From assembly GCA_000091205.1 (NCBI GenBank), contig AP006493.2: a stretch of DNA of 64,000 nucleotides; one strand, given 5' to 3'. The notes beneath the pieces are model-generated. The model was not told the DNA's origin. It was given only the letters and a program-made list of their open reading frames with translations, and did not search any database. Below, in pieces: positions 2,885 through 34,249 of the stretch. The position numbers were made by a program, and so were the translations under genes. Each line of letters starts with the position of its first letter. The stretch's first letter is position 1. Source of the DNA: Cyanidioschyzon merolae. Its lineage: Eukaryota.

Positions 2885-3135
2885 CGAGCTCAAAATCCGA
2901 CTCAATGTTTGATGGTGAGGTCGCGTTACGCAGGCCAAGGAGCTCACATGAGAAGGCTCGCTTCGTTCCCATACGAACATTCAAGGGTCTCGTTCGACGC
3001 GAGCGCTTCCAGCAGGCTCCTGGAACCCAAATGCATGTATAACATGCTCGAATAGAGCGAAGGCAATGCGTTTACGGGATCAGAGGGGGTTCAAAAGCGG
3101 CCTCTAAGGTCGGGCTCGCAGTGCGCGTCAGCACA

Positions 3136-5652: not shown

Positions 5653-8411
5653 CGCAGTCCGCTACAAAGCGAAAGTTACTGTAAGCGTTAAAGATGCACA
5701 AGCACGGACGCCGCTGAGGGCATGTGCGCGAACCCTGTCTGCTTTATACATAAAATTCAAGGATCAATGCTTGGACTCGGCGCGCGATCCTGCGATCACC
5801 CGGCGATGAGGGCGGGAAGCACACTATTTGTGACAAGATAGAACACATATGTATATACCAACCCTGTGGAGAGTCTCCGCAAAGCATTCAGGTACGGCCA
5901 CGCTCCCCCAGCGACAGCTAAAGTATATGCTTGTTGCACGTATATACCGTTGTGTAGAATCTTGGAGCACCATGACCGACTGCTTATCGCATAAGAAACC
6001 CTTTCCGGAGTAGGTGCGCGACGCTCGAGCTGTTCTAGATTGCTGAACCGTTCTTTACTAGTGTCCTGCTTGAGGCGCGAAGCCTGTGGCGGCTCTGCTC
6101 TAGCAACTCATGTGAATCGCATGTCTGGATCATTTCAGCGCAATGCCTATACTGAGTGCTATGCAATGCGCTCGATTTTCCTCGTCTTGTTGATCGGTTG
6201 AAATTGTGCCTGGTTGCTGGGCACTCTCCGAGGTCTCACAGAGTGCATACATCTTGAGGTTCTACCAGTCTTTATCGTCCATGAGATTTCGTATTTACTC
6301 CACCGCGTGACGCAAGCACCTTGCACGATCTCCACCAAGTATCGTCGTGAGGTAGCTTGAATGTCTCATACTTGCTCTCAGAGACTAGCCGTAGCTCACA
6401 GTGACGGTCGCGCACGACACAAGTGCCTGCGGTATTATAATGGGCCCTATTCGGACATATAGGGACAACGTTCTATTGACGCTTGAGAGGGGTGGAGCGT
6501 TCGGATTCGGGCTGCGCTTTTGCTTGTCTCTGGCATGTATACTTTAGGAACACATAGAAGCGCAAGACGCAAGGCAGACAGGGAGACATTCACTGTGTTT
6601 CGGGCATGCGATGGATACGTTGTCCGTCGGCTCGTGTCCGAGAGCAACTCGATATGTCTGGATGATATAAAGCGAGTCTCGCTCTCATTTGCGGATATCG
6701 TCCGAACTCGTTACCAAATCAATCTCTTCCGCCGACACCTCGTTATTTGTCCCGATCGACAGCCCATGAATGCCTTCCATCCGTCCCAAATTTTCTGCGC
6801 CCGTCCGGATAGGCCACAACGGATGCAACGCCCATAGAATGCGCTCGACGTTGACCCACACATGGTTGAGGTTTCTGAGGTTCATCTGATAGCTTCTGTC
6901 ACCTGTGCAATAGATTTTTGGGGTCGCAAATGTGGTACGGCGACCTGCCGAGGTATGTTGGGAATCTTGCAGGTAACACGCTGGCCCTATAATCAGACGG
7001 CCTCGCGTCTGCTATCCCGCGCATCAGTTGTGTTGTTGTACTAGGCTTGGATCCAAAAATCTCTGAGGAATATGCTCAGCCGGCTGCCCTGCATCTGGTA
7101 CCCGTGTGAACACTTGCTTACGAGATTTTCCAAGACGAGAAGAGCTAGGGGAGCCTTCCTGGCATCATGTGGTTTACGATCCCCAACGACGTCCTGCGTT
7201 TTGCTCTTTGAAACATTCACCCCGTTGACCTGTTTCATTAATGAAGGTCTTCACTGCGGTTCAGACCGATCTTTCCGCTCCGTGTGTCTTCGCTCCCTGT
7301 TCTTCCTAGTTCGCTTTTCGGGGGAATTTTTCTCTTCTTCGACCGATGGTTTCCGTTTCTTCTCCTTTAGCTCGCGGGGTGGCATGAGTGGGTTCGCTTA
7401 ACACCATACCCATTTTGTTTCCCCGACGGATTCATACGCATTGCGTGGAAAGCACAACGGAAGCTCACATTGTCTGTATACGTACACATCAACTATTCGT
7501 TGCGTCCCCTTTGATTATCTTCTCTGTCGCGAGCACGCTCCGGCACCGGGACGCGCTTTTCCGCTCTCTCCCGCACATGCGCAGAGCATCAGCAGAGTAG
7601 TTCAGGGTTGTCGACGACAGAGTACGATTTCCGGAACACCAGTGTCACGCATGTGAACAACTCGTCTAATGATACTTGAGCGAAAATATCGAGATTCACA
7701 GTGCTGAGGACGCCTTCGACGAGGCTGAACTAGGGAGAACAGACCGGCAAGAAGAACAGCTTTCCGCCAGTCTCATCTGCGTCATACTCGACCATTTTCT
7801 ACACAAAAAAGTCAGTGCCGGCTACAATCAGGACTCAAACGTATGGGAAGGGGCTGCCACGAAGTGCTTCCAGGTAGGCTGAGGTGTCAAGCGATCCTAT
7901 TCGTCCAGCACTTCGTGGGCGAGCACACGATCGCATCACAGCTCTGACTCGTGTCGTTGTCCTTCTCGATAGTCTCTTCTTCACCAACAGCGGGTTGTCT
8001 CTCTACGAATACGCATATGCGTCTCTGCCGTGTTTCCCAAACCAAGTTGCACGGGAGCACAACGTCCCTGCTTGGGCTTTCTGTAACAGCTACGCTACAA
8101 GAATCAATTCGGTGGCACTGCATCCCAGGCTTCAACCCGAAATCTTCAAAGAATTGAAGAGTCTTCTACCTGCGACCATGTGTTTCCAGATAATCCTACA
8201 GTTTTCGTTTCCACCTTCGCTGGCACCAGAGCCCGAGTTCTCCGCATGGCACCCACTGAAGACCCTATGAGCATCGAAACCGTTCTTCGCTTGAGAGTGA
8301 GCGCGCGCGAGTACGCCATACAGCGTCCACAGTCTCGTACTGTCTTTTGCAACTGGCTTCCGCTGCGACCTCTGTTGGCTAGGAACGAGCGTCACGAGTT
8401 TTATGTACTGA

Positions 8412-13046: not shown

Positions 13047-16000
13047 TGGTGCAGCCGGTCCTGGTTCGCGCCAAAGCGTAGCTAGATCTTTTGCATTCAC
13101 AGGACTGGTATGCTTCAGCTCATCGCGAGGTTTGCGCAGTGCTCAAGGACCACAGAGGACCTTGGTGTGCGTTAGTGATGCTTTGCGTGCATCTCGTCTT
13201 TTGGACTGGAGCCTTTTTCTGGGACGGACAGCCTCGCTGCATCAATGTTGCTGTTGAGCGGAGCAATCCGTGGCACACTCTGGTCTTGTATGATCGACGC
13301 TTGTAGGCAGGTCTCCTCTCGTGGTGCCAGCACGATCGCCGAGGGCACTTCAGCAACAAGGTCGTCTATTTCGTGGCGGTATTCTCGAGCACTCGACAGG
13401 ACCCGATAACTTGTTCCTGATACCGACACCCTGCTTTCCTTAAGCACATGCTCGTTTTTGAGAATGCGACATCTGCGTCTCTGGTGCTTTTTCGTGCAAT
13501 GTAGAATCTATGCATCTGTCGATAATTTTGCTCTGGAAATGCGCGCTCCGGCGTGGTGTTGATGCTGGTTAACAGGATCCGGTTTTTTATGTTGCAAAAT
13601 AAATGAGTCTGACCAGAACTCCACGAAGGTGCAATTGCTATTGCTAATCAGGCTAGACAACAGTGTCGCTCGTCAGGCACGCCCACCTTACCCAAACCCA
13701 GACCTGGATTTTCGTCGGGATTAGAGACGAGAACGATACCGTAATTCTTCGGATGCATGGTTACGTCCAGTGCGTGACGCTGTAATAGCAGTTTTATCTG
13801 GGTCCGCCTAGTCTCCTGCAGTCAACATCCGCTCACAGGGACCTGGTGTTCACCATCGCTCGCTCATTGCCCGAGACGCTCCGAGTGTATTGGCGAGCAG
13901 GTTTCCCCAGCATACATGTGCCAACCGCAATGCTCGTGAATCCACCGCCACAAGTAGATCAAGTGCAGCGACCTGGAGATCATCCTGCTCGATGAGCGAT
14001 GCTCCATTTTCAAGCTGATGGATCGCGATGGCTTGCTTTCTCGTTTCTTCAAAAATGTTAGGGATCGCTCGCATCTCGCTTTTGTTCAAACGAATGCCGT
14101 ATGCTCTGCATTATCCCGGATGAGCTAAGACGGGTTCCAAGCAGTCGGGTAGGCGCGTGTGCGTCTCCTGGGGTCCTTGGAAGATGCAAAGGCGCAAAAT
14201 CGCTCCTGCAGCGAAGCACGGTTGGTGACATTCATGTCCTTGCGCACGAAAGAGACGCACAAACCTGCAACGCCCTGGATACAACCCTGCTGCACAATGC
14301 TGAAACGTCCTGCTCTTGAACTCGAGCCGATTTCGTTGTGGCAATTGGCAACCCGGGTCCGCCTGAACGCAAGCAGCATTGTTGTTTCTCGACACTGCGG
14401 GATCAAGCTTCGAGTCGTGCTTGATCGACCATTCGGAAGAGCACAATGAGTGCGAACCAATCTGGCTGCTTGTTATCGAATCTATCGATCTGGGCATTCT
14501 ATCCAGGTCGTGCTTCGATTCGCAACCTGAGCGATTTGCTGAAAGAAAAGCGTCAGTTTCAGCGCACCGAACGAGAAGGGCAACGCATCCCAGATGCTTT
14601 ATACACACGGAATAATATCGAATAACGGAACACCGTTGTCGATCAGGTATTGCCCAGGAAACCCGTTCCAGGAGTGTTGATAAATAGACAACATTCGAGC
14701 CTTTCTGAATTTCCGGACAGTGCCACATCAGCTCCTGCGCTCATTCATGAAGCCAATACCCTCTATCCTGGCCACGAACGTTTCTCTCGCAAAGCTTCAG
14801 ATTTTCAGGGCAATGCCTGTGCTGCGTACGAAACCATTGCATGGAAAGTTCGCTCGACACAAAACTTCTGGACGCTCCGGACGCAAGAGATACTTCCAGA
14901 TATTGATTGAGGCATTCAAGTACAGGTGCAGAAAGTGCTTGTGTGCTTGGTTACTAGATGAATCACTACGTAGCAAGCCTCTCACTATCGTTTTCACCGC
15001 CATTTGACGTTAGCTCACATTACTGGACACCATACCTCGCATCCATCGCTATCTCACGCTTCCCTGTTCTACCAGTTTCAACATGCACCCGTGCTCTTGC
15101 TGCGTGTATGTCGTCTTGAAGCCATTGACGGCACTCGAGCGATGCCGATTCCCGCATTCGTTGTATGCTCTCGTCGATAGCGGAGGAGGTTTTGCTAGCA
15201 CGTTACAAAACGTCCAGTTCCATAGATTACTTTAAAAAAGACATGATTCATACCTCATTTCCATTTCAAAATCATTACAGGAAACGGAGAATAATCGGTT
15301 CTCGCCTCTGTACAACTGTAACTAGTGACGACACAGACACCGTCGTACGCTCTCCTGCCCGAGATCACCTGCATGAGCTATTTGAACACTCAAGTACATC
15401 CGGGATGAAGTACACAACGCACTTATCTCTGCTTGATAAGCTGCCCAGAGTTTCTAAATCGGCCTTGAAGTCGTCATACCGCCAGGCGGTATGCCTCCTG
15501 GCAACCAGAATGACCGACTCCAGATGATACAACGCTTTGGAACAAGAGCGCTGCTTCATCTGCTGTACATTCAGGTTGATGGATCGGTCCTCATGCGTTA
15601 TCGCGTTGGCGACGGTCGTGGTATTCATAGTCCCGGGATCCACGCTCATAACAAGTCGTTCTCTTGATCTGGATTCAACCCTTTTGAAAATGAGTCTTCG
15701 TGCTCAATTCAGACCTAGATTTTACAATGAATATGTAGAACGATATTCCATCCGCCCCTATGGTCCATGTAAACAAGAAAACTAAAACGAAATTCACCCA
15801 CGCGCTTCGCGAACTTGTGCCAATGCTTCGTGCTCGCTCGTCGAAACGAACACCCTCTTCTTTCCCTTTGCTCGGCCGGATGGTATGGATTTGGTCGTCG
15901 TACCTTTTTTTCCGTATGTTTGCCTTGTGATTCAGATGCACGAGACCAACGGTGGCAATGAACCTTGCCTTTTCTACGTATGTTTGTACCTGCAACGATT

Positions 16001-17257: not shown

Positions 17258-19279
17258 CTAGCGCCAAATGCGCCGGCACGCCTGCCCAACACTACGGAGT
17301 ACCTTTCGGGCCTCGGTGATTTCCCACTGGACGCTGTGGCGTGCAATGTCAAGTGTCTCAACCACAAGGCTCCAAAGATGCAACCAAAAACGCAGCACAT
17401 ATGCAATATAATCTACACGTTTGTTCAGCCAGCTAAGAACGAAGCTGATACATCCAACGAGCAGCACCAATAACCCGAGTGCCACGAGACGGACGACGAG
17501 GCCTTGGCAGCGCTCTAGGACCGCACTCCACATGGTTGAACGCTGTGCGTGCTTCTCGCCGCGCCCCGAAGCGCTCGCTGGCAGCGAAAGCCAAAGTTTC
17601 TGCACGGAACGCCTCCGCTGCAGGCCACGGAGCGCCTGACAAGCCGGTACACCCGGTATATGCGTTGACCGATCGATCCAGCTGGGGACCGAATCCAGCG
17701 GATGACGCTGTGTCACCTCTATGTCCGCTTTGCATAGAACCTCTTCTGCGATGCTCGGTAGCTTCCGGGTCGAAATGCGTTCTAGTTGTTTGCGAACAAG
17801 GAATGCCAGCATTTCTTGGCGGTGCTCTCGAAACTTGGGGCTCACTTGGTGTCGTTTCAAAAAGCCATCCCAGTTGGTCTCAATGAGTCCAATGCGTCGA
17901 GCGATTAGGTGCTTGACGCGTGCAGCAAAAGCTGCTGGGGTTTCTTCGGGACGCCGCTGCTGCGGCTCCAGATAATATACATCGCAGACAACTGCCCAGG
18001 ACGTCATGAGCGCGAAGAGATGCGTAAGGAACACCTGCCTGGCGCTGTTCCAGAATACATCAGCGTATGCTTTGTTGTACTTGATCGCAACTGGGTACAC
18101 AAGTGCACCAAGCTCGAAACTACCCTTCTTAAACATGATGCAGTACTCGTTGTTGACACAGGTGCCCTCAGGAAAGACCAGCACTGGTTCATGCTCACCA
18201 TTTTGAACGTGTTCTTGAAGTAAGCGCTGTACAATACGACGATCATGGCCTTCCTCGCGATCGAACCAAATGTGATTCTGTACGAGGCTCATGAGATCTT
18301 GGATGCGACCGGCGAGTCCCCCATGACGTTGTCCGATTGTAGAGAACGGATAATCCTTGATCATGATCGCCAAATCAATCAGAGACGTGTGATTTGCGAC
18401 GTAGATCTGGTTAGGTCGGCGACGAGGACGCTCACCATGGTAACGTACGAGCCCGCTCCATGAGGCGACCAGCGTCGAAGCGAGGAAGCGAATCAGCTGC
18501 TTCTGGAGGTAGACCTTGAACCGCGTCCGCCTTCGCAACAGCAAGTGCACGAGCGTGAATCCAGTTGAAAAAATGGACACGCCAACGATGAGGATGCCCA
18601 GTCGCAGAGGAAATAGGATCCCATAGCGAATGAAGATACTAAACAACCAGATCGGCCAAAGAATGATAGGAACTGGAGTTGAACGTGTACGTGTCATGAG
18701 GTTCCATACTCTGGGTGCACTGGACTCGAAGCACTTTGTCAGCGAGTCACCAGCCATGGCACCGACGGCCTCGGCGAGCGGCGGCACCACGGCAATAAGC
18801 GGCAGAACAGCACGTTGTTGTCGAGCACCGGCAGCGTGGGTGCGTATGCGCGTGTTTGTGTACTCCTCAGTCCGATCGGTGAGGCAGGCCTCGTCGCCGA
18901 TTACATCGAACAGACCTCGGATAGCGTCGTAGGATTCCCACTCGCCTAGTCCGCCGAGCTCGAGCTCGGAGTGCAGCCGCGAGAGTCTCCGCTGGAGGTC
19001 ACCCTGTGGGCCGCTTTCACGGTGCAAAGATACCGAACTTGTGTCTGATTGGCCAGCGTTCTGGTAGTTAGAAGCTGTACCACTCTCAGCGGCAGCAGCA
19101 GCAGGGCCCCTGTCTGAAGCGAATTCGGAGACGCATCGGCTAGGATCAGTTTCTAGCTCCTGCTGATGCTGCTGCCAACGCCAACCGGCTGCACGCTCGC
19201 CATAGATAACCCTTGATGTCAAGTCGAGCCCCCAGATATACAGCTGTCGGATCAACGACCAGTTGCGTACAAAAAGCAT
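17258..19279 (-). CDS. Glycerol-3-phosphate acyltransferase of the ER GPAT3/GPAT4/GPAT9 type (LPLAT family).
   Basis: Acyltransferase motif I NHTSLID and motif IV FPEGTC. Extended similarity to GPAT3/4 through VYPVAIKY...FWNS...MTSWAVVC...WDGFLKR, with predicted TM helices. Confidence 0.85.
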   Translation of the reverse strand: MLFVRNWSLIRQLYIWGLDLTSRVIYGERAAGWRWQQHQQELETDPSRCVSEFASDRGPAAAAAESGTASNYQNAGQSDTSSVSLHRESGPQGDLQRRLSRLHSELELGGLGEWESYDAIRGLFDVIGDEACLTDRTEEYTNTRIRTHAAGARQQRAVLPLIAVVPPLAEAVGAMAGDSLTKCFESSAPRVWNLMTRTRSTPVPIILWPIWLFSIFIRYGILFPLRLGILIVGVSIFSTGFTLVHLLLRRRTRFKVYLQKQLIRFLASTLVASWSGLVRYHGERPRRRPNQIYVANHTSLIDLAIMIKDYPFSTIGQRHGGLAGRIQDLMSLVQNHIWFDREEGHDRRIVQRLLQEHVQNGEHEPVLVFPEGTCVNNEYCIMFKKGSFELGALVYPVAIKYNKAYADVFWNSARQVFLTHLFALMTSWAVVCDVYYLEPQQRRPEETPAAFAARVKHLIARRIGLIETNWDGFLKRHQVSPKFREHRQEMLAFLVRKQLERISTRKLPSIAEEVLCKADIEVTQRHPLDSVPSWIDRSTHIPGVPACQALRGLQRRRSVQKLWLSLPASASGRGEKHAQRSTMWSAVLERCQGLVVRLVALGLLVLLVGCISFVLSWLNKRVDYIAYVLRFWLHLWSLVVETLDIARHSVQWEITEARKVLRSVGQACRRIWR

Positions 19280-19559
19280 CCCAAACTTTTCCAGAAGCGA
19301 GGCGTGTCTCGCTACTCAAGCCTAGACTGACTATGATCTCCAAAACCCCACCAAAGCCGCGTTATCTACGAAGAGCGCAGTGATAAGAAACTAGTAAAAG
19401 ACGGTTTCGGTTGAGCCAACAGACTAGAAAGAAAACGCAACAAAGTCGAGGACGCGGCGTCTCAAAGCAGCAACAACGGGGTCTTCCAGCGCCACCGAGA
19501 AGGCCCTGCCTAAGTGCGCTGTCTTTCCAAAACACCCGCAGTCGCTACCTGAGCACCAA

Positions 19560-22500
19560 AAGAAAACAGTCCCGAAAGAGTTGATGTGGATCTGTGTGTA
19601 GAAGCAGGCGGTATCGTCTAGGGAAAGAAAAACGGAATTCGATGACGCGATTTGTCCAGCGTTGCGCGCGAGTCGCGAAACGTCGTCCTTCAGCTGAATT
19701 CCGTTCCATACCCGCTGCGTTGTATCACAGGAGATCGAAATCCGGATGCAATGTACTCTATAGATCGTGGACGAATTGCCTGAAGGACATATATTCCTTA
19801 CTGTACAGTGCAGGGGCGACTCTATTTCTCCTCCGGGTGAGCCTTAACACAGTATTCAGATGCGTGAGGAACGCGAAAAGAAAGAATCAGATGTGCTCCG
19901 CGTCGAAAACTAACATTCTCAGAGCGTGCTTGCGGTCAATGGTAGAAAACGGACCATTGATCACCGCATGGAGACCAAAAGCGACGAAAGCAGCTACCAT
20001 GGGTGTCTCTGTTTCTCAACAGCTTGTTCGCGTGGTCCTGAAATCACCCGGATAAAGTCGTAAAAATGTCCAATCTCATTCATAGCTATCATCTACCGAA
20101 ATTGCAGCGACAGCGTTCCTCGAACGTCGCTGTCGGTATAGAGCACAGGGACGTCGATTTGTTTATTCAGTCGATGATGGCTCCTTCGGATGACACGGTC
20201 GGAGCGTAGACGGGTATTCGCAGAGAAGGTGCCCGTTGAATGTGCGGTGGAACTCGAACAGAACGACGACATCAACTGTTCTGACTGCAGTGGATTCTTT
20301 TCCCAGCCTGAGTGTCGCTCATAGAAATGGATATGCAAGTCGAGGATCCCAGAGGCCCGGTGTCGCCTGCTGCCGGAAAACGGAAAGCTGTACCTAGCAA
20401 AGGGGAACAGGAGAAGACCAAGATGCAGAAGTAGGATGCGAAGCGTCAAAAGCAATTCGAAAGAAGACTGTATGACTAGACGGTGGTGGGAGCCTTGCTT
20501 CTAGGCGCTATCAAGGACCACTACCAGCGAGACTTGTAGGAGGCCATGAGAAACGTTTTCGTGTCTTACTCCAAGAAATGTATGTAACGCTTGTTTAGAA
20601 ATGAGGCATTTGGTCGAGTTTTACAATGACTCACGGACATCAACACAGTCGCGGTTCCGAAGGGATTTTTCAGCAGGATCTTCATTCGTCACCTGATGCT
20701 TGGAACAGGGAAATCTTCGACGAAAAATGAGGGAGTACATGCTCTCCAGCAAAATTACGCCCAATACCGCTTCAGCGGCATTCGAGACAGGGACGACTCA
20801 GATACTTACACGGATGATGCAATGAGGAACCTCACGCACCCGAGGAACTATATGATCGTGAAACTCGTAAGTTTCATGATACGCTGCATCATTGCGCTGT
20901 ACCCGGGCCTCTCTTGCAGTGGGATCCGGGCCATCATCAACGACATAGTACACGATCTCCGGAATGAACGGAAGATCGAAGTAGTCGACAAGAAAGACAT
21001 CACGCAGGAGAAGGAATGAAGCATCTGTTTCTCGTGCGACTATTCAAAAGTACCGTGCGGTTCTGGGGCTGGCGAATCCAGCAGAAAAGGTATCAGGTAT
21101 GAAAAAGGATGGTATCATCTCATCCTAAGCTACTTCGGATACCTGAACTGAGAACGAGTACGCCAGACAGAGATGGAGCTGAGTTCGGCGAAAAAATGAG
21201 TTGGAGAAACGGAAGGCTGCGCTTCTGGGGAAGCGCTTCAACGTCGTTCCGTTGTGCACCGTCAAGTCACACTCTGTGACTATCGACTCCAGAGTCCTTC
21301 ACGGCATCATGAAGAAAGAACGTTTCGAGCTCGATGTTAGCAACAAGGAATTCACGGGTGGAAACCAGGAGACGTACTGGAAGAGTATTTTCGATTTCAG
21401 ACGTCTCAAAATGAGCAAGAAAGAGGTACTCACTGGAGTAATCGAAATCGATGGAGCAGCCATGTGTGTACACTATCGGTGCTTCAAGGAGGCGGATCGT
21501 CCTGATCTGTCTTCGATATCGCACTTGGTGGAGCTTGAAGAAAACAAAGAGACGGATACTGCGACGCAGAAGGTACAGAAGAACGACTTTGTCATTGGCG
21601 CTGGTCCCGGGAACACGCAAATCGTTACCACGACTGCTCCCAAGTATGAGGAAGATGGCGCTGGTGGCAACTTGCGTCAGAAAGACATGCGACTTTTGAG
21701 GTTCTCAACAGCGAGATATTATCGAGAATCGGAAAAATGAATGTGAGGAAACAATTTGAGACATGGAATGCAGGAGTGAAAGCGCATTTGAGGCGATCAG
21801 CCAGGTGACTAGCCGTGGAGCGAGCTTTGGAGCTTTTCGGGTATTCATGAAAGTTAGCGTTCCTCACTGGAGAGCGCTGTAAAAAGAGTATACAAAGCCC
21901 CAGTGGGCTCGTCTGCGTGTGAATCTGTACTATGGGAAGCAGCGTACATTTGCCAACTTTTTCAATGAGTTGAGCGCCTTTAACAAGCACAAGGGTCAGA
22001 GGCTCGTAGTATCACAGCGAGCATGATGCTGGATGGCCCAAAAAGGGACTACGCCAGCTCCAACGTCAAGAACGTACAAGGAGTGTGCACGGCGTTTTGT
22101 CAGGATACCGATATGTGAGTACCGAACGTCATACGTGCACCATGAGCTGGGGTGTACACTTCAGAGGGTCGAGCGGGAAAAGTGCCAGCGGGCCCTGAGG
22201 ATCTGCTCAAGTACGGAGTGCTGACGGGGCAGGAAATGGCACGGATGGCATGTGTTCGAGGACTACTTGCATTGGTGATTACAACCAATGGCAAGAAACG
22301 TGTGGAGTTCTTGAACAGAGACTTGAACGCTGCTATCAATATAAGGAGATGTGCGGTGATGGAGAAGAGACCTGCAGCTCTAACAAGAGAGAATTTTGTG
22401 GGAGAACCTCTCAAGGTGGAATTATATTTGAAAAAGTTGAAACTAGAAGTAGGCGGCCGGTCCAAAAAGGCTGAAAGGCGTCATCGCATGGACGTCCATT

Positions 22501-22690
22501 TACTCTCCATGGTTATGATACATATTTGCTGCACTATCGGCGACCGGGCAGCTTGTGATAGCTTACGTCTCAGAGAGGCTTGTGAAGGTTGTAATACTGT
22601 TTTAAACTTTTTACTGGAAAGGTTTTCGGGGATCACTTGCGCAGTGCTTCGTTTTACGTGGAGCGATGAGTGCTTCTAGTGATCTCAGCC
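19560..22690 (+). pseudogene. Fanzor/TnpB-like RuvC nuclease gene relic (E2, the most complete copy). It has multiple frameshifts and a mutated RuvC-I aspartate.
   Basis: RuvC-I-like [19 protein letters not shown] at 21582-21626 (canonical GIDPG reads GAGPG; the D codon at 21603-21605 is ggt). This is followed by [14 protein letters not shown]. RuvC-II / Fanzor-type PICEYRTS is at 22108-22131. RuvC-III EFLNRDLNAAINI is at 22305-22343. The motifs lie in three different reading frames (ORFs 21201-21740, 22033-22224, 22152-22679), and no CxxC zinc ribbon is left. Confidence 0.5.
20005..20047 (+). other. Second copy of the conserved 43-nt block (pairs with 664-706).
   Basis: GTCTCTGTTTCTCAACAGCTTGTTCGCGTGGTCCTGAAATCAC. 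It sits in the 5' part of relic E2, and the surrounding homology to E1 begins near 19710. Confidence 0.35.
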
Positions 22691-23146
22691 CCGAGCAGAT
22701 CGCAGAGTAAGTTGAATGGAAACCGCTGCCATAGGTACCGCTCCAGGCCGCACTACACTCTCGTCGCTTGGACTTGAGACTAGATTTACATCGAGGTTGT
22801 TCTTGTCTCCATGCACTTGGCTTCAGGGGCCTTTATCTTGATCGCAGCAAATGAACGACGTGTGGGCCCCAGCCCAGAAGACACCGGGGCCTGCGACTCG
22901 CGGCCGCTTTTACGAGGTAGCTTGGATTCGAGCTGCGTGCTCTCCGCTACGCTCCACTGCACAACTTGGACCCAGAACTGGGTAGAAAGCTAGCGCCCCG
23001 TTGTTGGTGTTCGCTTGGTTGCGCAGCAGGCACCTGAGGCAAGCGGCAGCAGTTCGTTCGGAGCACGACCTGTGTTTGGGATGCAAGCGCGACGGCTAGA
23101 AACAGAGCAATGACTAACCTTCCCATCGATCACGAAACGGCTGTAG

Positions 23147-23570
23147 GTTTGAGGAGGCATTCAAACTTTTTGACAAGGATGGTGACGGCAAAATCACCAC
23201 GAAGGAGTTAGGAACGATCATGCGCTCGTTAGGCCAGAACCCTACGGAAGCCCACTTACGCGAGATGATCGCCGAGGTTGATCAAGACGGATCAGGCACT
23301 ATCGATTTTGATGAATTCCTTGCGCTGATGGCAAGCAAGATGAAAGACATCGATACCGAGCAGGAAGTGCGGGAGGCATTTGCGGTTTTCGATAAGAACA
23401 ATGACGGCAAAATCAGCGCTGATGAGTTACGGGCGGTCATGCTGAAGCTGGGTGAGCGACTCACAGACGAAGAGATCGATGAAATGATTCGCGAAGCGGA
23501 TGCCGATGGAGACGGCTATATTGACTACCAGGAATTTTCGAACTTATTGCAATGGGATCAGCACACCTAA
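23147..23570 (+). CDS. Calmodulin-like EF-hand protein, 3' exon only. One or more 5' exons were not resolved.
   Basis: The ORF is open from 23118 and reads ...[35 protein letters not shown]...[13 protein letters not shown]...[14 protein letters not shown]...[14 protein letters not shown], which is about 70% identical to calmodulin. A CTGTAG acceptor lies immediately upstream at 23141-23146, there is no in-frame ATG, and an in-frame stop lies at 23115. Confidence 0.7.
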
Positions 23571-29119: not shown

Positions 29120-32100
29120 GTGTTGGACGGATCGGGACGATGCGCAGTTTTTGGTATAAAGGGAGTTGCTCGCGAACCGCAGTACTTTATCTATCTCGGA
29201 AAGACTACACAGAGGGGGACTCGTTTTTGTTTCTGGGTTTATTATAGGACGATAGTGCCCCGCAAACCTCTCGTTTCACGGTGTTGCGTGTGCAGGCTGG
29301 GTTCTGCATCACCAGGGATGACTCCGGAAACCTCAACGCAACGCGCACACACAGAGGGCCGTTCCCCTGCGGAGGTCGTTAGTGGAGATGACGGAAACGG
29401 ATGCCCAGGTAATAATAGTTCGGCGTCTGTGTTTGAGGAAGCTATCCGTGTCGAGAAACCGCCTGCGCCTTTCGAAGCGCTCGAAACAGCAGCAGCCTCT
29501 CGCGGTTTAGGCGCGCTGACCACGGGGACCAGCACTGAGACTCCGTCAACGGCACCCGCGGGAGCTGGCCGTCCGGAAGAACACTCGGGCACCGCCTCTC
29601 GAGTAGGGGCGCTCGGGGAACGCCAGAGTTGGCCGGCTCGCGGTCCCGGGGTTCCCAACGCTCGTGGCGTCGTAGGCGCTGGCACGACCACGGCGGCACG
29701 AATGCACACCCTGGGACGCGGCGGTCGTGTTGTTGTCCAGCAGCCATCGTCATCCGCTGAACAGAATGCCAAACCCGATGTTCGCTCGGAGAGCGCTGAC
29801 ACCCCCAAAGCGACCACGGCTGTAGCTGCAGCCGCTATGCTCAAAGCATCTCGGAATGACACTGGTGACCGCACAGCGATCCCTTCCACGGGGCCTGTTG
29901 TTCGCAGCGCTCAACAGGCCGCATGGAGCAGACAACGCTCTGTCCCGGACCCGGCAAGAAATGCTACCGGAAGGATATTCTCGAGAGCTACGCAAGGCGC
30001 GTCGGCGCGATCTGCCACACCGACTAGTGATTTCCCTGCGCTTGTGCGGGAGAACCCTACGCAATCGAAGCCGTCTGCAATGCAACAGCGGAAACCTGAT
30101 GAGAGTGCTGCGCAGCTGCGACCTGTCGCTGCTGCACAGGATTCAGCACGGCGAGGGCAGCATCCGCTGGGTACTGTGTCACGAAATCACACCGAATCGG
30201 GGCACGTTCCAAAGGCGATTCCATCGCCCCTACAGCTCACGGACTGGAGTGAGGATCCAGATGAGGAAATGAACTTTAGTGTCCCATTGGACCAACGTCT
30301 CGCTGTACCTGGAATGAAACCGCTGACGCGTCCGGCACAGAAGGACTCTCTGAGAGAAGCGCAGTCCCCCACGACCGATAGTGCAACCATTTCAACACGT
30401 GCGATCGGTGGATTCGACTGGACTGATTCGGACAATGACGAAGGAAAGGCGGTGCCATCGGACGACAATGAGGCATCGAAAAATGACATTGCATCTGAGG
30501 TTGCGACGGGAACAGCAACAACAGCGAATGTGGAGAACGCGGACGGACGTCAGGGTGCTGCGTTCGTTGAGTCGGACGAGTACCAACAGCAGCACCAGCA
30601 GCAGCAGTCGCAACCGATCGCAGTGGGTACAAGGCGTCCAAATATTCAACCGAGTCTGTCCAAAGAAAAGATGCAAGTCGATTTGGAGGAAATCTCGAGA
30701 GAATTGCACCTCCTTGAAGAGCAGCGCGAGCTTGCGAAACAGAAAGCCGCCGAACGTGCTCGGCAACGTAGAGAAGAAGAAGAGCGTATGGAGAGGGAAC
30801 GCAAGGAAAGGGCAGCACTCAAACTTCGCCAGCTCGAGGAACGAATTGCAGCGAAGAAGGCAGAAAAGGCGACTGTGAAGGAGCGGACCACTCCAGAGCA
30901 TCAAGCTGCTAGAACAGATTCAGTCAAAGCCGCTGACCTTGGCAAAGATCGAAAGCTGCCAGCCGCTCGAATTGACCGAGCAATCGCTTCCGCCCAGAGT
31001 GGAGGGCCTGCCTCCTCCGCATCAGCGTCGGAGAAACCATATCCGCTCGAGCAGGTGCGACGAGATGATGCGTCTGCGGGTGATACGCGAATAACCCGAA
31101 CGGAGCATGCTACCGAAGCGGGATCACGCTCGGCAGCGCGCAATACACAGCAAAGAGTACGACGCGCGCCGCTCACGGAAACCTGGTCCCAAGAAGAGCA
31201 GCACACACGCGGACGTGCCACTGCCTCAGCAGGTGTGAGAGGCACCGCTTCTGCTGTCCCCGCATGTGATCGGTCCTCGCTGGATCGTAGCAGAGCCACG
31301 GCATCTGGCGCATCCAGTACGAATTTGGATCAGAGCAGACGGCAACGCCGCCAGGGCGCACCTCGCGGGCAACTCAGCAAGAGTGATGAACCAAGAGAAC
31401 GCAGTGACTCAGCTTCTGCTTCAGGGTCGACGAGCCGAGACAAGACGGCGACTGAGCCAGAGGGTCCAAAGATCGAATCATCGGTGCGCGGGAGCCGGTC
31501 TCGAACGAGCGCCCCATGGGGGCGTGCAGGCCCTGCCTCGAAGCCTGGCAAGCGGAACGATCGCGAAGGGGCTCCTTCAGAAGCAGCCCTGTCGGAGCAC
31601 GTGCAGCCTCTATCGCTGGAGGACGCTTCGCTGCCTTCGAGCCCGCCACCGACGTGGTTCACCATGCCCGATACCATGGCGGACGAGGAAGAACCGACGG
31701 TGAGATCGCCCTGGGCAGCGTCAAGTCCCGCTCTGACACCAGCGGCAAGTGCGACCGGTGTTGCACCAAAGTCCGCCGACGAACTGGACAAGTGGCAGCT
31801 GCCGAGCTACCCGAAACCGTCGTTCGAGGATATCTCGCGAGCATTTGCTGCTGCAGGGCCGGTGGTTGCAAGCCCTGCTTCGACCGCATACGGCTTGGCG
31901 GAGCTTTACGGATCGAGCGTTTCATCCCAGAGAGTCCCAGTGGAATCGAAAGCGTCGCTGGTGTCAGCACGGCGCCCCGGCGCGCTCCAAGACGAGCGAG
32001 AATTGGAGGCCCCCAAGCGGGATACGAGCCGTTCAAGTCCGGGAACGCAACGCGGAACGCTGAGTGAGCGCACGTTATCTGAACCGGACGCAACCGCGGC

Positions 32101-34189
32101 GGATCCTGCGCAGCACCATCTGAGAGTATCATCTGATGTAGCTGTAGCAACCACTGCGGTTTCACAGCTATCGCTCAGTGCCGATGCCGACAAGACCCTA
32201 ACGAAAGAGATCCCCTTCCATTCCGATTTACGCACGGATGCGCCCGAATTCGTGCCGTTTATATCGTACGGTGGCTTTGGCACATCTGCATTCCCAGTAC
32301 CACAGATGAGCCCGACGTTCTTTTCAGCTCCGTACGGCGAGGCGACGCGGTCGGATCTATATCCTTTACCAGCTTATATGCAGCCTGCTGACTGGGGCAC
32401 AGCGTCTGCCGGCGATACGATCGACATGCACCATCTCAGTTCTGGTGGCGAGGCGGCTGTACCCACAAGGACAGTGAGGCAGCGTGCGCCCCCAGAGGAC
32501 GACGATGAGGATCTCGCAGCGGCGGCGATTTCGTCGGCGCTCGGCGAGCGGCGCCAGCATCGTGGCGGCAAGGGCGTCACCGCAGGGCGACACGCTGGAA
32601 CCAGCAGTGCGCCTGGACGAACGCGGCAGCGCCCGACGATTGCGGCCAGCACGGAAGTATTTCGGGCCAACAGGGGGCGTCACCGGACTGGGATGGGTGT
32701 GGGCGCTTCTGGCACCGATGGAACGCTTGCCAAGCCACAGCGCTTCGTGTCCGAGGATCGCGAAGCGCCCTCGCACTCGGAAGCTTCAGCAGCATCAGCA
32801 TCAGCATCAGCATCACGTCTGGAGCAGGAAGCAACGACTCCGATGGCACGTTCTGGACAGCAACAGCGGACCGCAGATTCAAACACGAGCGCCAGCACGG
32901 AGCTGCAAACGAGGCGGCGGTCTCCTGGGCTGCGAACGAGTAGCAACAGCAGCAATGTGCGCTCTGTGCAGGATGTGCGCTGCGAATCCAGGCGTGGTAC
33001 TGCTGCTCCTACTACTACTACTGCAACGCAATCGTCGCCGGGGGAGAATCTGAAAGCTGCGGACGATGAGAGCGCGCAACGTTCGGAACCTGCGCCAGCT
33101 CTTTCAGAACAGCAGAGCGGGGCTGCTGCATCCGATGCAAGAGCCGGTGTGCAAACGCGAAAGGTAACCACAGGCGTGAATAGACTCAAGGCTGTGAAGC
33201 CATCTCGGCCCGCAACCGCGAACAAGTCGGCAGCAAACGCACTAGAACCAACAGCGGGTACCGGAACGGCCGATCGGAACGGCGAAGACGCCCTGGCACC
33301 AGCGACGACGAAGCGCGGCAAGTATTGCGACCGCAACGCTGGTGCCGATGGGAAACGTCGCGAACGATGGACAAGCCGACCGCGTCCACGAAGCATGCGC
33401 GAAGGGCGTTCGCGGAGTACCGCTTCCGTTACGGGTGCTGCTTCTGCAGCGACAACGGAGCCGAAGACGGCTACAGCCTTGGACACCGCAGTCAAGATGT
33501 TGCCGTTCGAGGTCAGTGGAACACGCACACCATCGCCAGTGCAGCGGGAGCAGCAGAAGCAAGAAGCGGTGCCTGAAGCGCCAACTCGAACGTCTCCAGC
33601 GGCGGAGGGCGCTCCCAAGGCGCTTGTCACGCCAGCTGATCCCGCTGAGGATCCGAAAACGCCTGCCAAAGACCAGCGGACTCGTGAGGCAGGCTCATCT
33701 GACGCGAGGGTATCAACGACGACGCCACCATTATCATCATCAGCGTCAGCATCAGCGTCGTTGTCGTCGAAAGAGCAAGGAGCCGCCAATGCGAAAGCAA
33801 CCGCCGCTACGGGCCAAGAAACGAAACACGAGCATTCGGCTTCTCGTCGACACTCGCAACGAAAGCTGCACCCGCGACAACGTCAACAGAAGCATCGCTT
33901 CCGGAACCGGACCAATGCAGGCAGCGAACAAGTCGAAAGCTCAGCGCGCACCATGCAACCCGAGCCTGCACCAACCGGAAACGATCGTTCTTCCGCGAAC
34001 GACGAGCATCGTGCGAGCTTCAAAAACGTCGATGTTGTCCCAGTTGCTGGCGCTTCCCTTGCACAACCAAAGTTCAAGCTGTCAACCGAGAGCGCAGTCG
34101 CTTATCGCCGAGTCGAGGCGAACGCGTCTCCGAGGCGTGCTCTGCGACAATTTCGCGAAAAGGTCAGCGAGGACGCCAAAGACGCATGA
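29120..34189 (+). CDS. Very large low-complexity (Ala/Ser/Arg/Thr-rich) protein of about 1624-1689 aa with a central charged coiled-coil-like helix.
   Basis: A 5 kb uninterrupted ORF; a likelier start is the ATG at 29318 (MTPETSTQ...). The charged segment is EEQRELAKQKAAERARQRREEEERMERERKERAALKLRQLEERIAAKKAEK. Poly-Q/H and poly-S/A tracts come from CAG/CAT/GCA repeats. Long antisense ORFs are attributed to GC content. Confidence 0.5.
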   Translation: MLDGSGRCAVFGIKGVAREPQYFIYLGKTTQRGTRFCFWVYYRTIVPRKPLVSRCCVCRLGSASPGMTPETSTQRAHTEGRSPAEVVSGDDGNGCPGNNSSASVFEEAIRVEKPPAPFEALETAAASRGLGALTTGTSTETPSTAPAGAGRPEEHSGTASRVGALGERQSWPARGPGVPNARGVVGAGTTTAARMHTLGRGGRVVVQQPSSSAEQNAKPDVRSESADTPKATTAVAAAAMLKASRNDTGDRTAIPSTGPVVRSAQQAAWSRQRSVPDPARNATGRIFSRATQGASARSATPTSDFPALVRENPTQSKPSAMQQRKPDESAAQLRPVAAAQDSARRGQHPLGTVSRNHTESGHVPKAIPSPLQLTDWSEDPDEEMNFSVPLDQRLAVPGMKPLTRPAQKDSLREAQSPTTDSATISTRAIGGFDWTDSDNDEGKAVPSDDNEASKNDIASEVATGTATTANVENADGRQGAAFVESDEYQQQHQQQQSQPIAVGTRRPNIQPSLSKEKMQVDLEEISRELHLLEEQRELAKQKAAERARQRREEEERMERERKERAALKLRQLEERIAAKKAEKATVKERTTPEHQAARTDSVKAADLGKDRKLPAARIDRAIASAQSGGPASSASASEKPYPLEQVRRDDASAGDTRITRTEHATEAGSRSAARNTQQRVRRAPLTETWSQEEQHTRGRATASAGVRGTASAVPACDRSSLDRSRATASGASSTNLDQSRRQRRQGAPRGQLSKSDEPRERSDSASASGSTSRDKTATEPEGPKIESSVRGSRSRTSAPWGRAGPASKPGKRNDREGAPSEAALSEHVQPLSLEDASLPSSPPPTWFTMPDTMADEEEPTVRSPWAASSPALTPAASATGVAPKSADELDKWQLPSYPKPSFEDISRAFAAAGPVVASPASTAYGLAELYGSSVSSQRVPVESKASLVSARRPGALQDERELEAPKRDTSRSSPGTQRGTLSERTLSEPDATAADPAQHHLRVSSDVAVATTAVSQLSLSADADKTLTKEIPFHSDLRTDAPEFVPFISYGGFGTSAFPVPQMSPTFFSAPYGEATRSDLYPLPAYMQPADWGTASAGDTIDMHHLSSGGEAAVPTRTVRQRAPPEDDDEDLAAAAISSALGERRQHRGGKGVTAGRHAGTSSAPGRTRQRPTIAASTEVFRANRGRHRTGMGVGASGTDGTLAKPQRFVSEDREAPSHSEASAASASASASRLEQEATTPMARSGQQQRTADSNTSASTELQTRRRSPGLRTSSNSSNVRSVQDVRCESRRGTAAPTTTTATQSSPGENLKAADDESAQRSEPAPALSEQQSGAAASDARAGVQTRKVTTGVNRLKAVKPSRPATANKSAANALEPTAGTGTADRNGEDALAPATTKRGKYCDRNAGADGKRRERWTSRPRPRSMREGRSRSTASVTGAASAATTEPKTATALDTAVKMLPFEVSGTRTPSPVQREQQKQEAVPEAPTRTSPAAEGAPKALVTPADPAEDPKTPAKDQRTREAGSSDARVSTTTPPLSSSASASASLSSKEQGAANAKATAATGQETKHEHSASRRHSQRKLHPRQRQQKHRFRNRTNAGSEQVESSARTMQPEPAPTGNDRSSANDEHRASFKNVDVVPVAGASLAQPKFKLSTESAVAYRRVEANASPRRALRQFREKVSEDAKDA

Positions 34190-34249
34190 TCGTCGTTTAT
34201 CTCAATTGCAATGCACCTCCAGATGGGTGTCATCAAATGCCTCTTCGCG

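What the first reader, a model, noticed from the sequence alone, without database searches (positions are those of the whole stretch)
19560..22690. Decayed Fanzor/TnpB-like (OMEGA RuvC nuclease) gene with all three RuvC motifs recognisable
Three adjacent plus-strand ORFs in different frames carry, in the correct order, a RuvC-I-like motif ([17 protein letters not shown], then [14 protein letters not shown]), a Fanzor-type RuvC-II motif (PICEYRTS) and the RuvC-III motif (EFLNRDLNAAINI). The canonical GIDPG aspartate reads G (the ggt codon at 21603-21605). No zinc ribbon survives, and the motifs are split by frameshifts. The locus is therefore a pseudogenised eukaryotic TnpB homologue (Fanzor) and not a functional nuclease. 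Fanzor relics are little catalogued in eukaryotic genomes, so the copy is worth recording, and a full-length intact copy may exist elsewhere in this genome.
Basis: partly seen in the sequence, partly recalled or inferred. Interest (0 to 1): 0.8.

Follow-up and report, generated by a model that had tools for sequence, protein, structure and literature searches.

The report
Dead copy of known Fanzor transposon
This stretch is one broken, non-functional copy of CMe-1A, a repeated mobile element of the red alga Cyanidioschyzon merolae that carries a Fanzor1 RNA-guided nuclease gene and was already described in 2013, so it is real but ordinary.

Summary
All four motif strings are present, in order, on the + strand, and the RuvC-I aspartate codon reads ggt at 21603-21605. 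The window is from Cyanidioschyzon merolae 10D. The locus aligns to the published CMe-1A Fanzor1 consensus (Bao & Jurka 2013) at 79.9% identity over 2184 columns (consensus 906-3081 = window 20327-22482), which is the typical divergence reported for the ~150 genomic copies.

A profile of relatives hits only solved Fanzor1 proteins in the PDB (E 5e-26 to 1e-13). An AlphaFold model of an intact relative (pLDDT 89.7) superposes on Fanzor1 structures along its whole length.

The copy is dead. It has 8 frameshifts, 6 in-frame stops, D431G and a lost terminal stop, and it lacks the family's 3' terminal hairpin tail.

Three corrections. The coding remnant is 20327-22508, not 19560-22690. The missing zinc ribbon is a trait of the whole clade, not decay. 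The family is already catalogued, with intact copies reported.

Minor additions: the copy has a different 5' region from the published consensus, and the window holds five more relics, including deletion derivatives that keep only the element ends. Novelty: already known. Interest: low.

The parts
19683..20325 (+). Truncated alternative 5' region: a non-coding repeat module joined directly to the Fanzor start codon. It is not the TE-N2_CMe-like 5' region of the published CMe-1A consensus.
   Evidence: It is 68-72% identical to window 343-994 and to L048 1951-2562. There is no match to consensus positions 1-905. The full version is about 1 kb (window 379-1359 = L048 1947-2929), so this copy lacks the last ~370 bp. 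No Pfam hit to its ORF.
20327..22508 (+). CMe-1 Fanzor1 pseudogene: the complete 734-codon coding region in decayed form.
   Evidence: Consensus 906-3081 = window 20327-22482 at 79.9% identity over 2184 columns. Frameshift-aware alignment to the published CMe-1 protein gives 67.2% identity (485/722). It finds 8 frameshifts near 20573, 20631, 20993, 21111, 21185, 21729, 21788 and 22192, and 6 in-frame stops at 20432, 20477, 20537, 21149, 21880 and 22024. The result is unchanged under two penalty settings. Sharp shared homology edges at ~20320-20340 and ~22480-22500 are seen against 81 related loci.
20327..20329 (+). Ancestral start codon (ATG).
   Evidence: It aligns with the ATG of the consensus ORF (consensus position 906) and of about 40 metagenome copies.
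20378..20467 (+). Remnant of the basic, NLS-like N-terminus (KRKAVPSKGEQEKTKMQK*DAKRQKQFERR), interrupted by the first in-frame stop at 20432.
   Evidence: It aligns to consensus KKRKTVPSPEEQEKTKKQKREARRQRLQERR. The consensus has 16 K+R in its first 60 residues. N-terminal NLSs are a general Fanzor feature according to Jiang et al.. Nuclear import was not tested here.
21588..21638 (+). RuvC-I motif [17 protein letters not shown]. The catalytic Asp431 is replaced by Gly (ggt, 21603-21605).
   Evidence: It aligns to consensus FVVGADPGNTNIITIAA. This Asp is invariant in 89 diverse relatives (D421 of P0100).
22108..22131 (+). Fanzor-type alternative RuvC-II glutamate motif PICEYRTS. Glu603 is retained (22117-22119).
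   Evidence: It aligns to consensus PVDEFRTS. The Glu is invariant in relatives (E592 of P0100). It lies 33 residues after the canonical RuvC-II position, which is Gly in VVAYGAG, as described for Fanzors.
22305..22343 (+). RuvC-III motif EFLNRDLNAAINI. Asp672 is retained (22320-22322).
   Evidence: It aligns to consensus EFVNRDFNAAINI. R, D, N and N are invariant in relatives. This is the only segment giving even a faint Pfam signal (PF07282 positions 50-60, E 1.5).
22509..22690 (+). The family's ~65-nt post-stop tail with terminal hairpin is absent or unrecognisable.
   Evidence: None of the 81 loci match beyond ~22500. Relatives have GTC TAG followed by a conserved tail where the window has CTCTCCATGG. 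Folding of 22500-22580 is no better than shuffled sequence (z -0.05 to -0.6), whereas about 20 of 22 family tails end in an 8-11 bp hairpin.

Best explanation
The locus is an old, inactivated copy of the CMe-1 (CMe-1A-type) Fanzor1 transposable element of Cyanidioschyzon merolae. By homology to characterised Fanzor1 proteins, intact family members are inferred to encode a ~734-aa RNA-guided DNA endonuclease. Its parts would be an N-terminal basic NLS-like segment, helical REC and WED domains, and a RuvC domain with the triad Asp431 / alternative Glu603 / Asp672. It would be guided by an omega-RNA transcribed from the 3' end of the element. This particular copy cannot make that protein. Its reading frame is broken by 8 frameshifts and 6 stop codons, the RuvC-I aspartate is Gly, the stop codon is lost, and the 3' terminal hairpin tail of the family is missing. 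It sits as neutral repeat DNA in the intergenic space between an acyltransferase gene and a calmodulin gene. What is shown: homology, family identity, the lesions and the boundaries. What is inferred: RNA-guided nuclease activity of intact members, and the omega-RNA role of the 3' tail.
For: Genome identity: the calmodulin ORF at 23220-23567 is an exact match to C. merolae 10D BAM80576.1. Published family: CMe-1A has ~150 copies, each ~80% identical to a 3169-bp consensus, no TIRs, a 734-aa single-exon protein, and some intact copies. Direct test: consensus 906-3081 aligns to window 20327-22482 at 79.9% identity, and the window copy is 67.2% identical to the CMe-1 protein across its full length, with 14 disabling lesions and D431G. 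Fanzor1 identity of the family: 149 relatives at up to E 7e-175; 3055 cluster representatives; a profile of 89 relatives hits only Fanzor1 in the PDB (PpFz1 5.4e-26, SpuFz1 1.7e-18, GtFz1 1e-13). An AF2 model of intact relative P0100 (pLDDT 89.7, pTM 0.88) matches SpuFz/PpFz/GtFz at E 1e-17 to 1e-15 with TM 0.63/0.73 over ~690 columns, while Cas12 variants and Fanzor2 score only >=1e-4. Catalytic D, E and D are invariant in relatives. No terminal inverted repeats were found, as published. Five further relics of the family lie in the same window.
Against: The copy does not carry the published consensus 5' region (1-905) or 3' tail (3082-3169), so it is not a canonical full-length CMe-1A. The family lacks the CCCC zinc finger that the founding paper lists in the Fanzor/TnpB signature. 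No curated Pfam or NCBIfam TnpB model reaches significance. No expression, RNA or activity data exist for this locus or for any CMe-1 protein, so nuclease and omega-RNA function of intact members is by analogy only. Genome identity rests on one exact protein match plus the repeat-family match.
Confidence: 0.95

Rival explanations
1. It is a functional Fanzor gene whose apparent frame changes are introns, programmed frameshifts or sequencing errors.
For: The eukaryotic host could in principle have introns. Two of the three catalytic residues are intact.
Against: Frame changes are 1-2 nt slips inside continuously alignable protein sequence, with no intervening sequence. Six in-frame stops lie inside conserved blocks. 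The RuvC-I Asp is Gly and the stop codon is lost. The published protein is single-exon. DNA identity to the consensus is the ~80% typical of old neutral copies.
Confidence: 0.01
2. The motifs are chance matches in unrelated ORFs, and there is no TnpB/Fanzor homology.
For: Single ORFs and the stitched sequence give no significant Pfam, NCBIfam or PDB sequence hit.
Against: E 7e-175 to intact relatives. E = 0 to the published Fanzor1 element consensus. Profile and fold matches are to solved Fanzor1 only.
Confidence: 0.005
3. It is a relic of a prokaryotic-type TnpB (IS200/IS605/IS607) or of Fanzor2, not Fanzor1.
For: The RuvC-III end weakly resembles the Cas12f1-like/OrfB TNB Pfam model (E 1.5 to 0.0012).
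Against: The best structural and profile matches are Fanzor1 by 12 or more orders of magnitude over Fanzor2 (ApmFz2 3.8e-4) and Cas12f. The protein is ~734 aa with a large REC region and an NLS-like N-terminus. No TnpA-like gene is nearby. The founding paper places CMe-1 in Fanzor1.
Confidence: 0.01
4. The dead copy has been co-opted, for example as a source of a regulatory or non-coding RNA, or as promoter sequence for the flanking acyltransferase or calmodulin genes.
For: It fills most of the 3.9-kb intergenic region between two divergently oriented genes. Nothing here excludes transcription.
Against: There is no sign of constraint: divergence from the consensus is the same as for the family at large. 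No Rfam match. No stable local structure at the 3' end.
Confidence: 0.03

Closest known systems
CMe-1A element / CMe-1 Fanzor1 protein of Cyanidioschyzon merolae (Bao & Jurka 2013, Mobile DNA 4:12; PMC3627910)
   Same: Same genome. The ORF region is 79.9% identical to the consensus along its whole length, and the protein is 67% identical over 734 residues. No TIRs. It is multi-copy in the window. Its divergence equals the published ~80%.
   Different: This copy lacks consensus positions 1-905 (the TE-N2_CMe-like part plus leader) and 3082-3169 (the hairpin tail). Instead it has the first 640 bp of a different ~1-kb 5' region, shared with window 343-1359 and locus L048. It is non-coding, whereas the paper says some copies are intact.
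Spizellomyces punctatus Fanzor1 (SpuFz1; PDB 8GKH, 9CEU-9CEZ), a demonstrated omega-RNA-guided dsDNA endonuclease
   Same: Whole-protein fold match of the intact relative: Foldseek E 1.3e-17, TM 0.63/0.72 over 690 columns. Profile match E 1.7e-18, aligning DPG/DPN, DEFRT/DEYKT, RGLL/HGLL and NRD/NRD.
   Different: Only ~15% sequence identity. SpuFz1 has a CCCC zinc finger in the NUC domain, while the CMe-1 clade has none. The omega-RNA of CMe-1 has not been identified.
Parasitella parasitica Fanzor1 (PDB 9CF0-9CF3) and Guillardia theta Fanzor1 (PDB 9CER-9CET)
   Same: Best profile hit (PpFz1 E 5.4e-26) and third hit (GtFz1 1e-13). Fold matches at E ~1e-16.
   Different: 12-16% identity. Both keep CxxC...CxxxxC (visible in the PpFz1 alignment).
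TnpB of IS200/IS605 (e.g. ISDra2) and Cas12f
   Same: Shared RuvC core and RuvC-III NRD...NAA.NI motif. Weak Pfam PF07282 signal. Fold matches to Cas12f at E ~3e-4 to 3e-3.
   Different: The canonical RuvC-II Glu is replaced by Gly, with an alternative Glu 33 residues downstream. The protein is much larger, eukaryotic and NLS-like at the N-terminus, with no partner TnpA.
Fanzor2 (Acanthamoeba polyphaga mimivirus ApmFz2, PDB 9B0L)
   Same: Same superfamily, and it also uses the rearranged glutamate.
   Different: The fold match is weak (E 3.8e-4, TM 0.23). Fanzor2 is shorter and sits in IS607-type elements with TnpA.

Membership tests
CMe-1A / CMe-1 Fanzor1 element family of C. merolae | Nucleotide similarity of about 80% to the published 3169-bp consensus | tested here: met
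   Consensus 906-3081 = window 20327-22482, 79.9% identity over 2184 columns, E = 0. The consensus was taken from the paper's supplementary file 2.
CMe-1A / CMe-1 Fanzor1 element family of C. merolae | Encodes (or once encoded) the 734-aa single-exon CMe-1 protein | tested here: met
   Full-length collinear alignment to CMe-1p, 485/722 identical, via frameshift-aware alignment. The protein was taken from supplementary file 3.
CMe-1A / CMe-1 Fanzor1 element family of C. merolae | 5' 635 bp shared with TE-N2_CMe (consensus 1-635) plus leader to position 905 | tested here: not met
   No match of consensus 1-905 at this locus. A different repeat module occupies 19683-20325. The copy is therefore a variant or rearranged member, not a canonical CMe-1A.
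CMe-1A / CMe-1 Fanzor1 element family of C. merolae | Consensus 3' terminus (positions 3082-3169, post-stop tail ending in ...TTTTGAAAGGCG) | tested here: not met
   Homology stops at ~22482-22508. The tail is unrecognisable, with no terminal hairpin.
CMe-1A / CMe-1 Fanzor1 element family of C. merolae | No terminal inverted repeats | tested here: met
   Only three short internal 14-nt inverted pairs were found in 19500-22750, none at the termini. The published table lists TIR = N.
Fanzor1 (eukaryotic TnpB homologues) | Sequence homology to established Fanzor1 proteins | tested here: met
   A profile of 89 relatives hits only PpFz1 (5.4e-26), SpuFz1 (1.7e-18) and GtFz1 (1e-13) in the PDB at E<=1. 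The window sequence joins that family at E 7e-175.
Fanzor1 (eukaryotic TnpB homologues) | Fanzor1 fold (WED-REC-RuvC-NUC architecture) over the whole protein | tested here: met
   An AF2 model of intact relative P0100 (pLDDT 89.7) matches seven Fanzor1 chains at E 1e-17 to 1e-15, TM up to 0.64/0.73. The test used a relative, not the broken window copy.
Fanzor1 (eukaryotic TnpB homologues) | RuvC catalytic triad: Asp (RuvC-I), Glu and Asp (RuvC-III) present in the family | tested here: met
   D421, E592 and D658 of P0100 are invariant in 89 sequences. They correspond to D431, E603 and D672 in CMe-1p.
Fanzor1 (eukaryotic TnpB homologues) | Catalytic triad intact in this copy | tested here: not met
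   D431 is Gly (ggt, 21603-21605). E603 and D672 are retained. The copy is a relic, not a functional member.
Fanzor1 (eukaryotic TnpB homologues) | Rearranged RuvC-II: canonical Glu replaced by Pro/Gly, with an alternative conserved Glu downstream (Jiang et al. 2023) | tested here: met
   The canonical position is Gly570 in VVAYGAG, and the alternative Glu603 in PVDEFRTS lies 33 residues downstream. The assignment of the canonical position is by motif alignment, not by a structure measurement.
Fanzor1 (eukaryotic TnpB homologues) | C4 (CCCC) zinc finger between the [TS][TS] motif and RD (Bao & Jurka signature; seen in SpuFz1 and TnpB) | tested here: not met
   The CMe-1 consensus reads TSYTHHELGCTL...VRGLLALVSTT. 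43/45 close and 55/59 distant relatives have no CxxC-type pair. This is a clade-level loss, and the founding paper nevertheless classifies CMe-1 as Fanzor1. Homology and fold outweigh this single feature.
Fanzor1 (eukaryotic TnpB homologues) | Omega-RNA encoded at the 3' end of the element that guides DNA cleavage | not testable with these tools
   Family copies have a conserved ~65-nt post-stop tail with a terminal 8-11 bp hairpin in about 20 of 22 copies. However, RNAalifold support is weak (5 pairs, -3.4 kcal/mol) and there are no RNA data. The window copy lacks the tail.
Fanzor1 (eukaryotic TnpB homologues) | N-terminal nuclear localisation signal | tested here: inconclusive
   There is a basic N-terminus (KKRKTVP, KKQKREARRQR; 16 K/R in the first 60 residues), disordered in the AF2 model (residues 1-27 pLDDT <50). 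No NLS predictor or experiment was available.
TnpB (IS200/IS605 OrfB; Pfam OrfB_IS605 / Cas12f1-like_TNB) | Significant match to curated TnpB Pfam or NCBIfam models | tested here: not met
   The best result is PF07282 at E 1.5 for the window reconstruction and 0.0012 (19.4 bits against a cut-off of 26.3) for a distant relative. NCBIfam gave nothing.

The most novel reading that the evidence does not exclude
The window copy, window copy B (343-1726) and metagenome locus L048 may define an undescribed CMe-1 subfamily. In it the published TE-N2_CMe-type 5' end is replaced by a different ~1-kb 5' region. Deletion derivatives that keep only the two ends have themselves spread: 5' region plus the last ~350 bp, or leader plus ORF start plus the last ~250 bp, the latter seen twice at 34186-34703 and 36812-37366. 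This would mean the 3' ~250-350 bp, the expected omega-RNA-coding part, together with a swappable 5' region, are the cis-requirements for mobility. It would also mean that the CMe-1 clade is a naturally zinc-finger-less Fanzor1 lineage living at about 42 C and pH 2, whose intact members could be unusual, heat-tolerant RNA-guided nucleases.
Probability: 0.3. Interest if true: 0.35.

Novelty: already known. Interest (0 to 1): 0.12.

Why it matters
For this locus, it matters very little. It is one of roughly 150 decayed copies of a repeat family whose consensus and protein were published in 2013, and it has no coding capacity.

The exercise has some practical value for annotation. Curated models (Pfam, NCBIfam) do not recognise this Fanzor1 clade, and Pfam labels part of it only as DUF8286. 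As a result the thousands of metagenomic relatives remain unnamed. A family profile or a structure comparison is needed to see what they are.

The clade-wide absence of the zinc finger, and the thermo-acidophilic host, could interest people looking for Fanzor nucleases with unusual properties. That interest concerns the intact family members, not this relic.

Tried and rejected
1. Pfam, NCBIfam and PDB phmmer on the three ORFs and on a stitched 430-aa reconstruction gave nothing significant. Homology only appears once relatives are used as a profile.

2. The close-family profile A1 against the PDB gave only E 0.045 to SpuFz1. It was superseded by the broader profile A3.

3. The first AF2 run, with a shallow alignment, gave pLDDT 64 and was discarded. 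The second run was used.

4. My first guess that 19683-20325 is the published TE-N2_CMe 5' module, based on its ~640-bp length, was rejected. The consensus 1-905 does not match there.

5. Introns as an explanation for the frame changes were rejected. The shifts are 1-2 nt slips inside continuous alignments, and there are in-frame stops.

6. RNAalifold on the family 3' tail found only 5 pairs (-3.4 kcal/mol). The terminal hairpin occurs in two sequence versions that pair in different registers, so column-wise covariation could not be shown. Single-sequence folds have a modest mean z of -1.6. The omega-RNA role therefore stays an inference.

7. A Rfam search of 19000-23200 at E<=1 gave no hit.

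8. A literature search for PF26935 gave no hit. Its name, DUF8286, came, and it is absent from the local Pfam copy.

9. An exact look-up of the acyltransferase ORF found nothing in the collection. Organism identity rests on the calmodulin match.

Ten members were scanned instead.
Full report
OBSERVATION. [17 protein letters not shown] is at 21588-21638, [14 protein letters not shown] at 21690-21731, PICEYRTS at 22108-22131 and EFLNRDLNAAINI at 22305-22343. They lie in ORFs 21201-21740, 22033-22224 and 22152-22679. The first and third ORFs share the same frame modulo 3 and only the second differs, because three frameshifts between them cancel out. The codon at 21603-21605 is ggt, as stated.

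FIRST SEARCHES. Curated models do not see this sequence. The single ORFs and a stitched 430-aa reconstruction gave no significant Pfam, NCBIfam or PDB sequence match. The only signal was E 1.5 to the last 11 positions of PF07282 (Cas12f1-like TNB, formerly OrfB_Zn_ribbon), falling on NRDLNAAINI. The large protein collection, in contrast, returned 149 relatives with E down to 7e-175 and 65-70% identity. All are unnamed metagenome or JGI proteins, some tagged PF26935, which is 'DUF8286'. Intact relatives read VGADPGNTNI, IPVDEFRTS and FVNRDFNAAINI.

IS THE FAMILY FANZOR? A profile of 23 close relatives reached SpuFz1 (PDB 8GKH) only at E 0.045, though the alignment was collinear and placed all three motifs correctly. 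An exhaustive profile search found 3055 cluster representatives at E<=1e-3 and 429 at E<=1e-30. A profile of 89 of these diverse members hit exactly three PDB sequences at E<=1, all of them Fanzor1: Parasitella parasitica Fz1 (5.4e-26), Spizellomyces punctatus Fz1 (1.7e-18) and Guillardia theta Fz1 (1e-13). An AlphaFold2 model of the intact 699-aa relative P0100, built on that alignment, had mean pLDDT 89.7 and pTM 0.88. Its seven best Foldseek matches in the PDB are all Fanzor1 chains, at E 1.3e-17 to 9e-16 and TM up to 0.64/0.73 over ~690 columns. Cas12 variants, Cas12f and Fanzor2 follow at E >= 1e-4. The Asp, Glu and Asp of the three motifs are invariant across the 89 sequences.

WHICH GENOME, AND IS IT KNOWN? 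The calmodulin ORF at 23220-23567 is an exact match to Cyanidioschyzon merolae 10D BAM80576.1. Bao & Jurka (2013, PMC3627910), the paper that defined Fanzor, list one Fanzor1 family in this alga, CMe-1A. It has ~150 copies, each ~80% identical to a 3169-bp consensus. It has no TIRs and its TSDs are undetermined. The protein is 734 aa in a single exon. The 5' 635 bp is shared with a second repeat, TE-N2_CMe, and some copies still encode an intact protein. I retrieved the consensus DNA and protein from the paper's supplementary files. Consensus positions 906-3081 align to window 20327-22482 at 79.9% identity over 2184 columns. That is exactly the ORF, from its ATG to 27 nt before its stop, at exactly the published typical divergence. 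This is a direct membership test, and it is met.

ANATOMY AND LESIONS. A frameshift-aware alignment of the CMe-1 protein to 20327-22530 covers all 734 residues at 67.2% identity (485/722). It needs 8 frameshifts (near 20573, 20631, 20993, 21111, 21185, 21729, 21788 and 22192) and crosses 6 in-frame stops (20432, 20477, 20537, 21149, 21880 and 22024). The result is the same under two penalty settings. The first two shifts are a compensating pair that could instead be read as two further stops, so either way there are at least 14 disabling lesions. Asp431 (RuvC-I) is Gly. Glu603 (22117-22119) and Asp672 (22320-22322) are retained. Against 81 related loci fetched from metagenomes, homology begins sharply at ~20320-20340 and ends at ~22480-22500. 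There are no terminal inverted repeats and no Rfam match.

ENDS OF THE ELEMENT. The window copy does not carry the consensus 5' region (1-905) or its 3' tail (3082-3169). Upstream of the ATG it has a 643-bp module (19683-20325). This module recurs at window 343-994 and in locus L048 at 68-72% identity. The full version is about 1 kb (window 379-1359 = L048 1947-2929) and in L048 runs straight into the Fanzor ORF. The main copy has therefore lost its last ~370 bp. Among the 81 loci, some have the full TE-N2_CMe-type 5' end, many have only the ~250-bp leader, and one has the alternative region. The family thus has interchangeable 5' regions, as the 2013 paper describes for other Fanzor1 elements. 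At the 3' end, family copies carry a conserved ~65-nt post-stop tail. In about 20 of 22 copies the minimum-energy fold ends with an 8-11 bp hairpin at the very terminus, in two sequence versions (CGTTTTTC-TTTT-GAAAGGCG or CGTCGTTCGA-CTT-TCGAACGGCG). RNAalifold support is weak and the mean z-score is only -1.6, so I record this as a candidate right-end or omega-RNA element, not as a demonstrated one. The window copy has no such tail (z about 0).

MECHANISM. It is established that Fanzor1 proteins are omega-RNA-guided dsDNA endonucleases, with the RNA transcribed from the transposon end (Saito et al. 2023; Jiang et al. 2023). It is also established that Fanzors replace the canonical RuvC-II glutamate with Pro or Gly and use an alternative glutamate downstream. 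In CMe-1p the canonical position is Gly570 (VVAYGAG), and the alternative Glu603 lies 33 residues further on, in PVDEFRTS. By inference, intact CMe-1 proteins act the same way, entering the nucleus through the basic N-terminus (KKRKTVP...KKQKREARRQR). The window copy can do none of this. It is inert repeat DNA occupying most of the intergenic space between an acyltransferase gene (17258-19279, -) and the calmodulin gene.

ZINC RIBBON. That is true, but it is not decay. The published intact consensus reads TSYTHHELGCTL...VRGLLALVSTT. 43 of 45 close relatives and 55 of 59 distant representatives have no CxxC-type pair between the glutamate motif and NRD. SpuFz1 and TnpB, by contrast, have a CCCC finger. 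The AF2 model is confident through this region without it. This is a clade-level departure from the D...[TS][TS]..C4...RD signature of the founding paper.

OTHER COPIES IN THE WINDOW. Copy B (343-1726) is the alternative 5' region joined to the last ~350 bp of the element. Two ~500-bp mini-copies lie at 34186-34703 (+) and 36812-37366 (-). Both correspond to consensus ~787-1020 plus ~2833-3089, with the same deletion junction. They are 64% identical to each other, with homology confined to the element, so they are old independent insertions of a single deletion derivative. A strongly diverged C-terminal relic lies at 14809-15667 (-). It has VMSVDPGTMNT but destroyed Glu and NRD motifs, and it resembles the distant P0100-type proteins more than CMe-1, so it may come from a second Fanzor1 lineage. 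A fragment lies at 6323-6580 (-). TE-N2_CMe-like pieces lie at 41486-41634, 57088-57194 and 63857-64000.

VERDICT. The element family, its Fanzor1 nature, its copy number, its decay and the existence of intact copies have all been in the literature since 2013, so the finding is already known and of low interest. The small new points are the alternative 5' region, the end-retaining deletion derivatives, the terminal hairpin, the clade-wide zinc-finger loss, and the fact that Pfam's DUF8286 proteins are Fanzor1. These are recorded as side observations.

Noticed in passing
window 343-1726 (+): A second CMe-1-derived copy. The complete ~1-kb alternative 5' region (343/379-1359, 69% identical to L048 1947-2929) is joined directly to the last ~350 bp of the element (1361-1726 = consensus 2739-3092). 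It is an internal-deletion derivative that keeps only the two ends.
   Followed up: partly
window 34186-34703 (+) and 36812-37366 (-): Two ~500-bp mini-copies in opposite orientation. Both equal consensus ~787-1020 plus ~2833-3089, with the same deletion junction. They are 64% identical to each other and the homology is confined to the element. This suggests one non-autonomous deletion derivative that was amplified long ago.
   Followed up: partly
window 14809-15667 (-) and 6323-6580 (-): Heavily decayed Fanzor1 relics only ~30% identical in protein to CMe-1. VMSVDPGTMNT is present, but the Glu motif reads VNGFKTTYT and NRD reads HLY. They resemble the distant P0100/P0105-type proteins more than CMe-1, so they may be remains of a second Fanzor1 lineage. 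The 2013 paper lists only one family for this alga.
   Followed up: partly
window 41486-41634 (-), 57088-57194 (+), 63857-64000 (-): Short matches (62-69% identity) to positions ~85-254 of the CMe-1A consensus, the part shared with the TE-N2_CMe repeat. They are probably solo TE-N2_CMe fragments.
   Followed up: no
loci L002-L081, last ~65 nt of each CMe-1A copy (consensus 3105-3169): A conserved post-stop tail with a small GGCG...CGCC hairpin and a terminal 8-11 bp hairpin. The terminal hairpin occurs in two sequence versions that pair in different registers, and it is present in about 20 of 22 copies. It is a candidate right-end or omega-RNA structure. Four loci also share TCGCTGCCGT just beyond the published consensus end.
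   Followed up: partly
family-wide (proteins P0001-P0272; CMe-1p residues 604-668): The whole clade lacks the CCCC zinc finger regarded as conserved in TnpB and Fanzor. Distant members keep a single 'LLWC' cysteine. Pfam tags part of these proteins only as DUF8286 (PF26935), and no curated TnpB model reaches threshold, so thousands of metagenomic Fanzor1 proteins are effectively unannotated.
   Followed up: partly
L001 8001-10259 (protein P0008, residues ~385-475) and relatives P0004, P0010: A variable tandem expansion of a ~23-aa unit (KHEExKEAxPATQxVQDNDLVVDA) lies immediately upstream of the RuvC-I aspartate, with up to four units in P0008. The window copy and the published consensus have one unit. 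It caused 126 extra blastn HSP starts at 21520-21600.
   Followed up: no
loci L002-L081: Of the 81 related loci, only three had a family ORF of 650 aa or more (L003 722 aa, L053 654 aa, L023 747 aa), so most copies in the sampled populations are also decayed. A poly-A tract just after the start codon varies in length and shifts the frame in some copies.
   Followed up: no
window 30001-34000: This stretch has a strikingly high AT skew (+0.23) and the highest GC content in the window (0.59-0.61). It coincides with a 1689-aa ORF (29120-34189) that ends where a mini CMe-1 copy begins. It was not examined.
   Followed up: no
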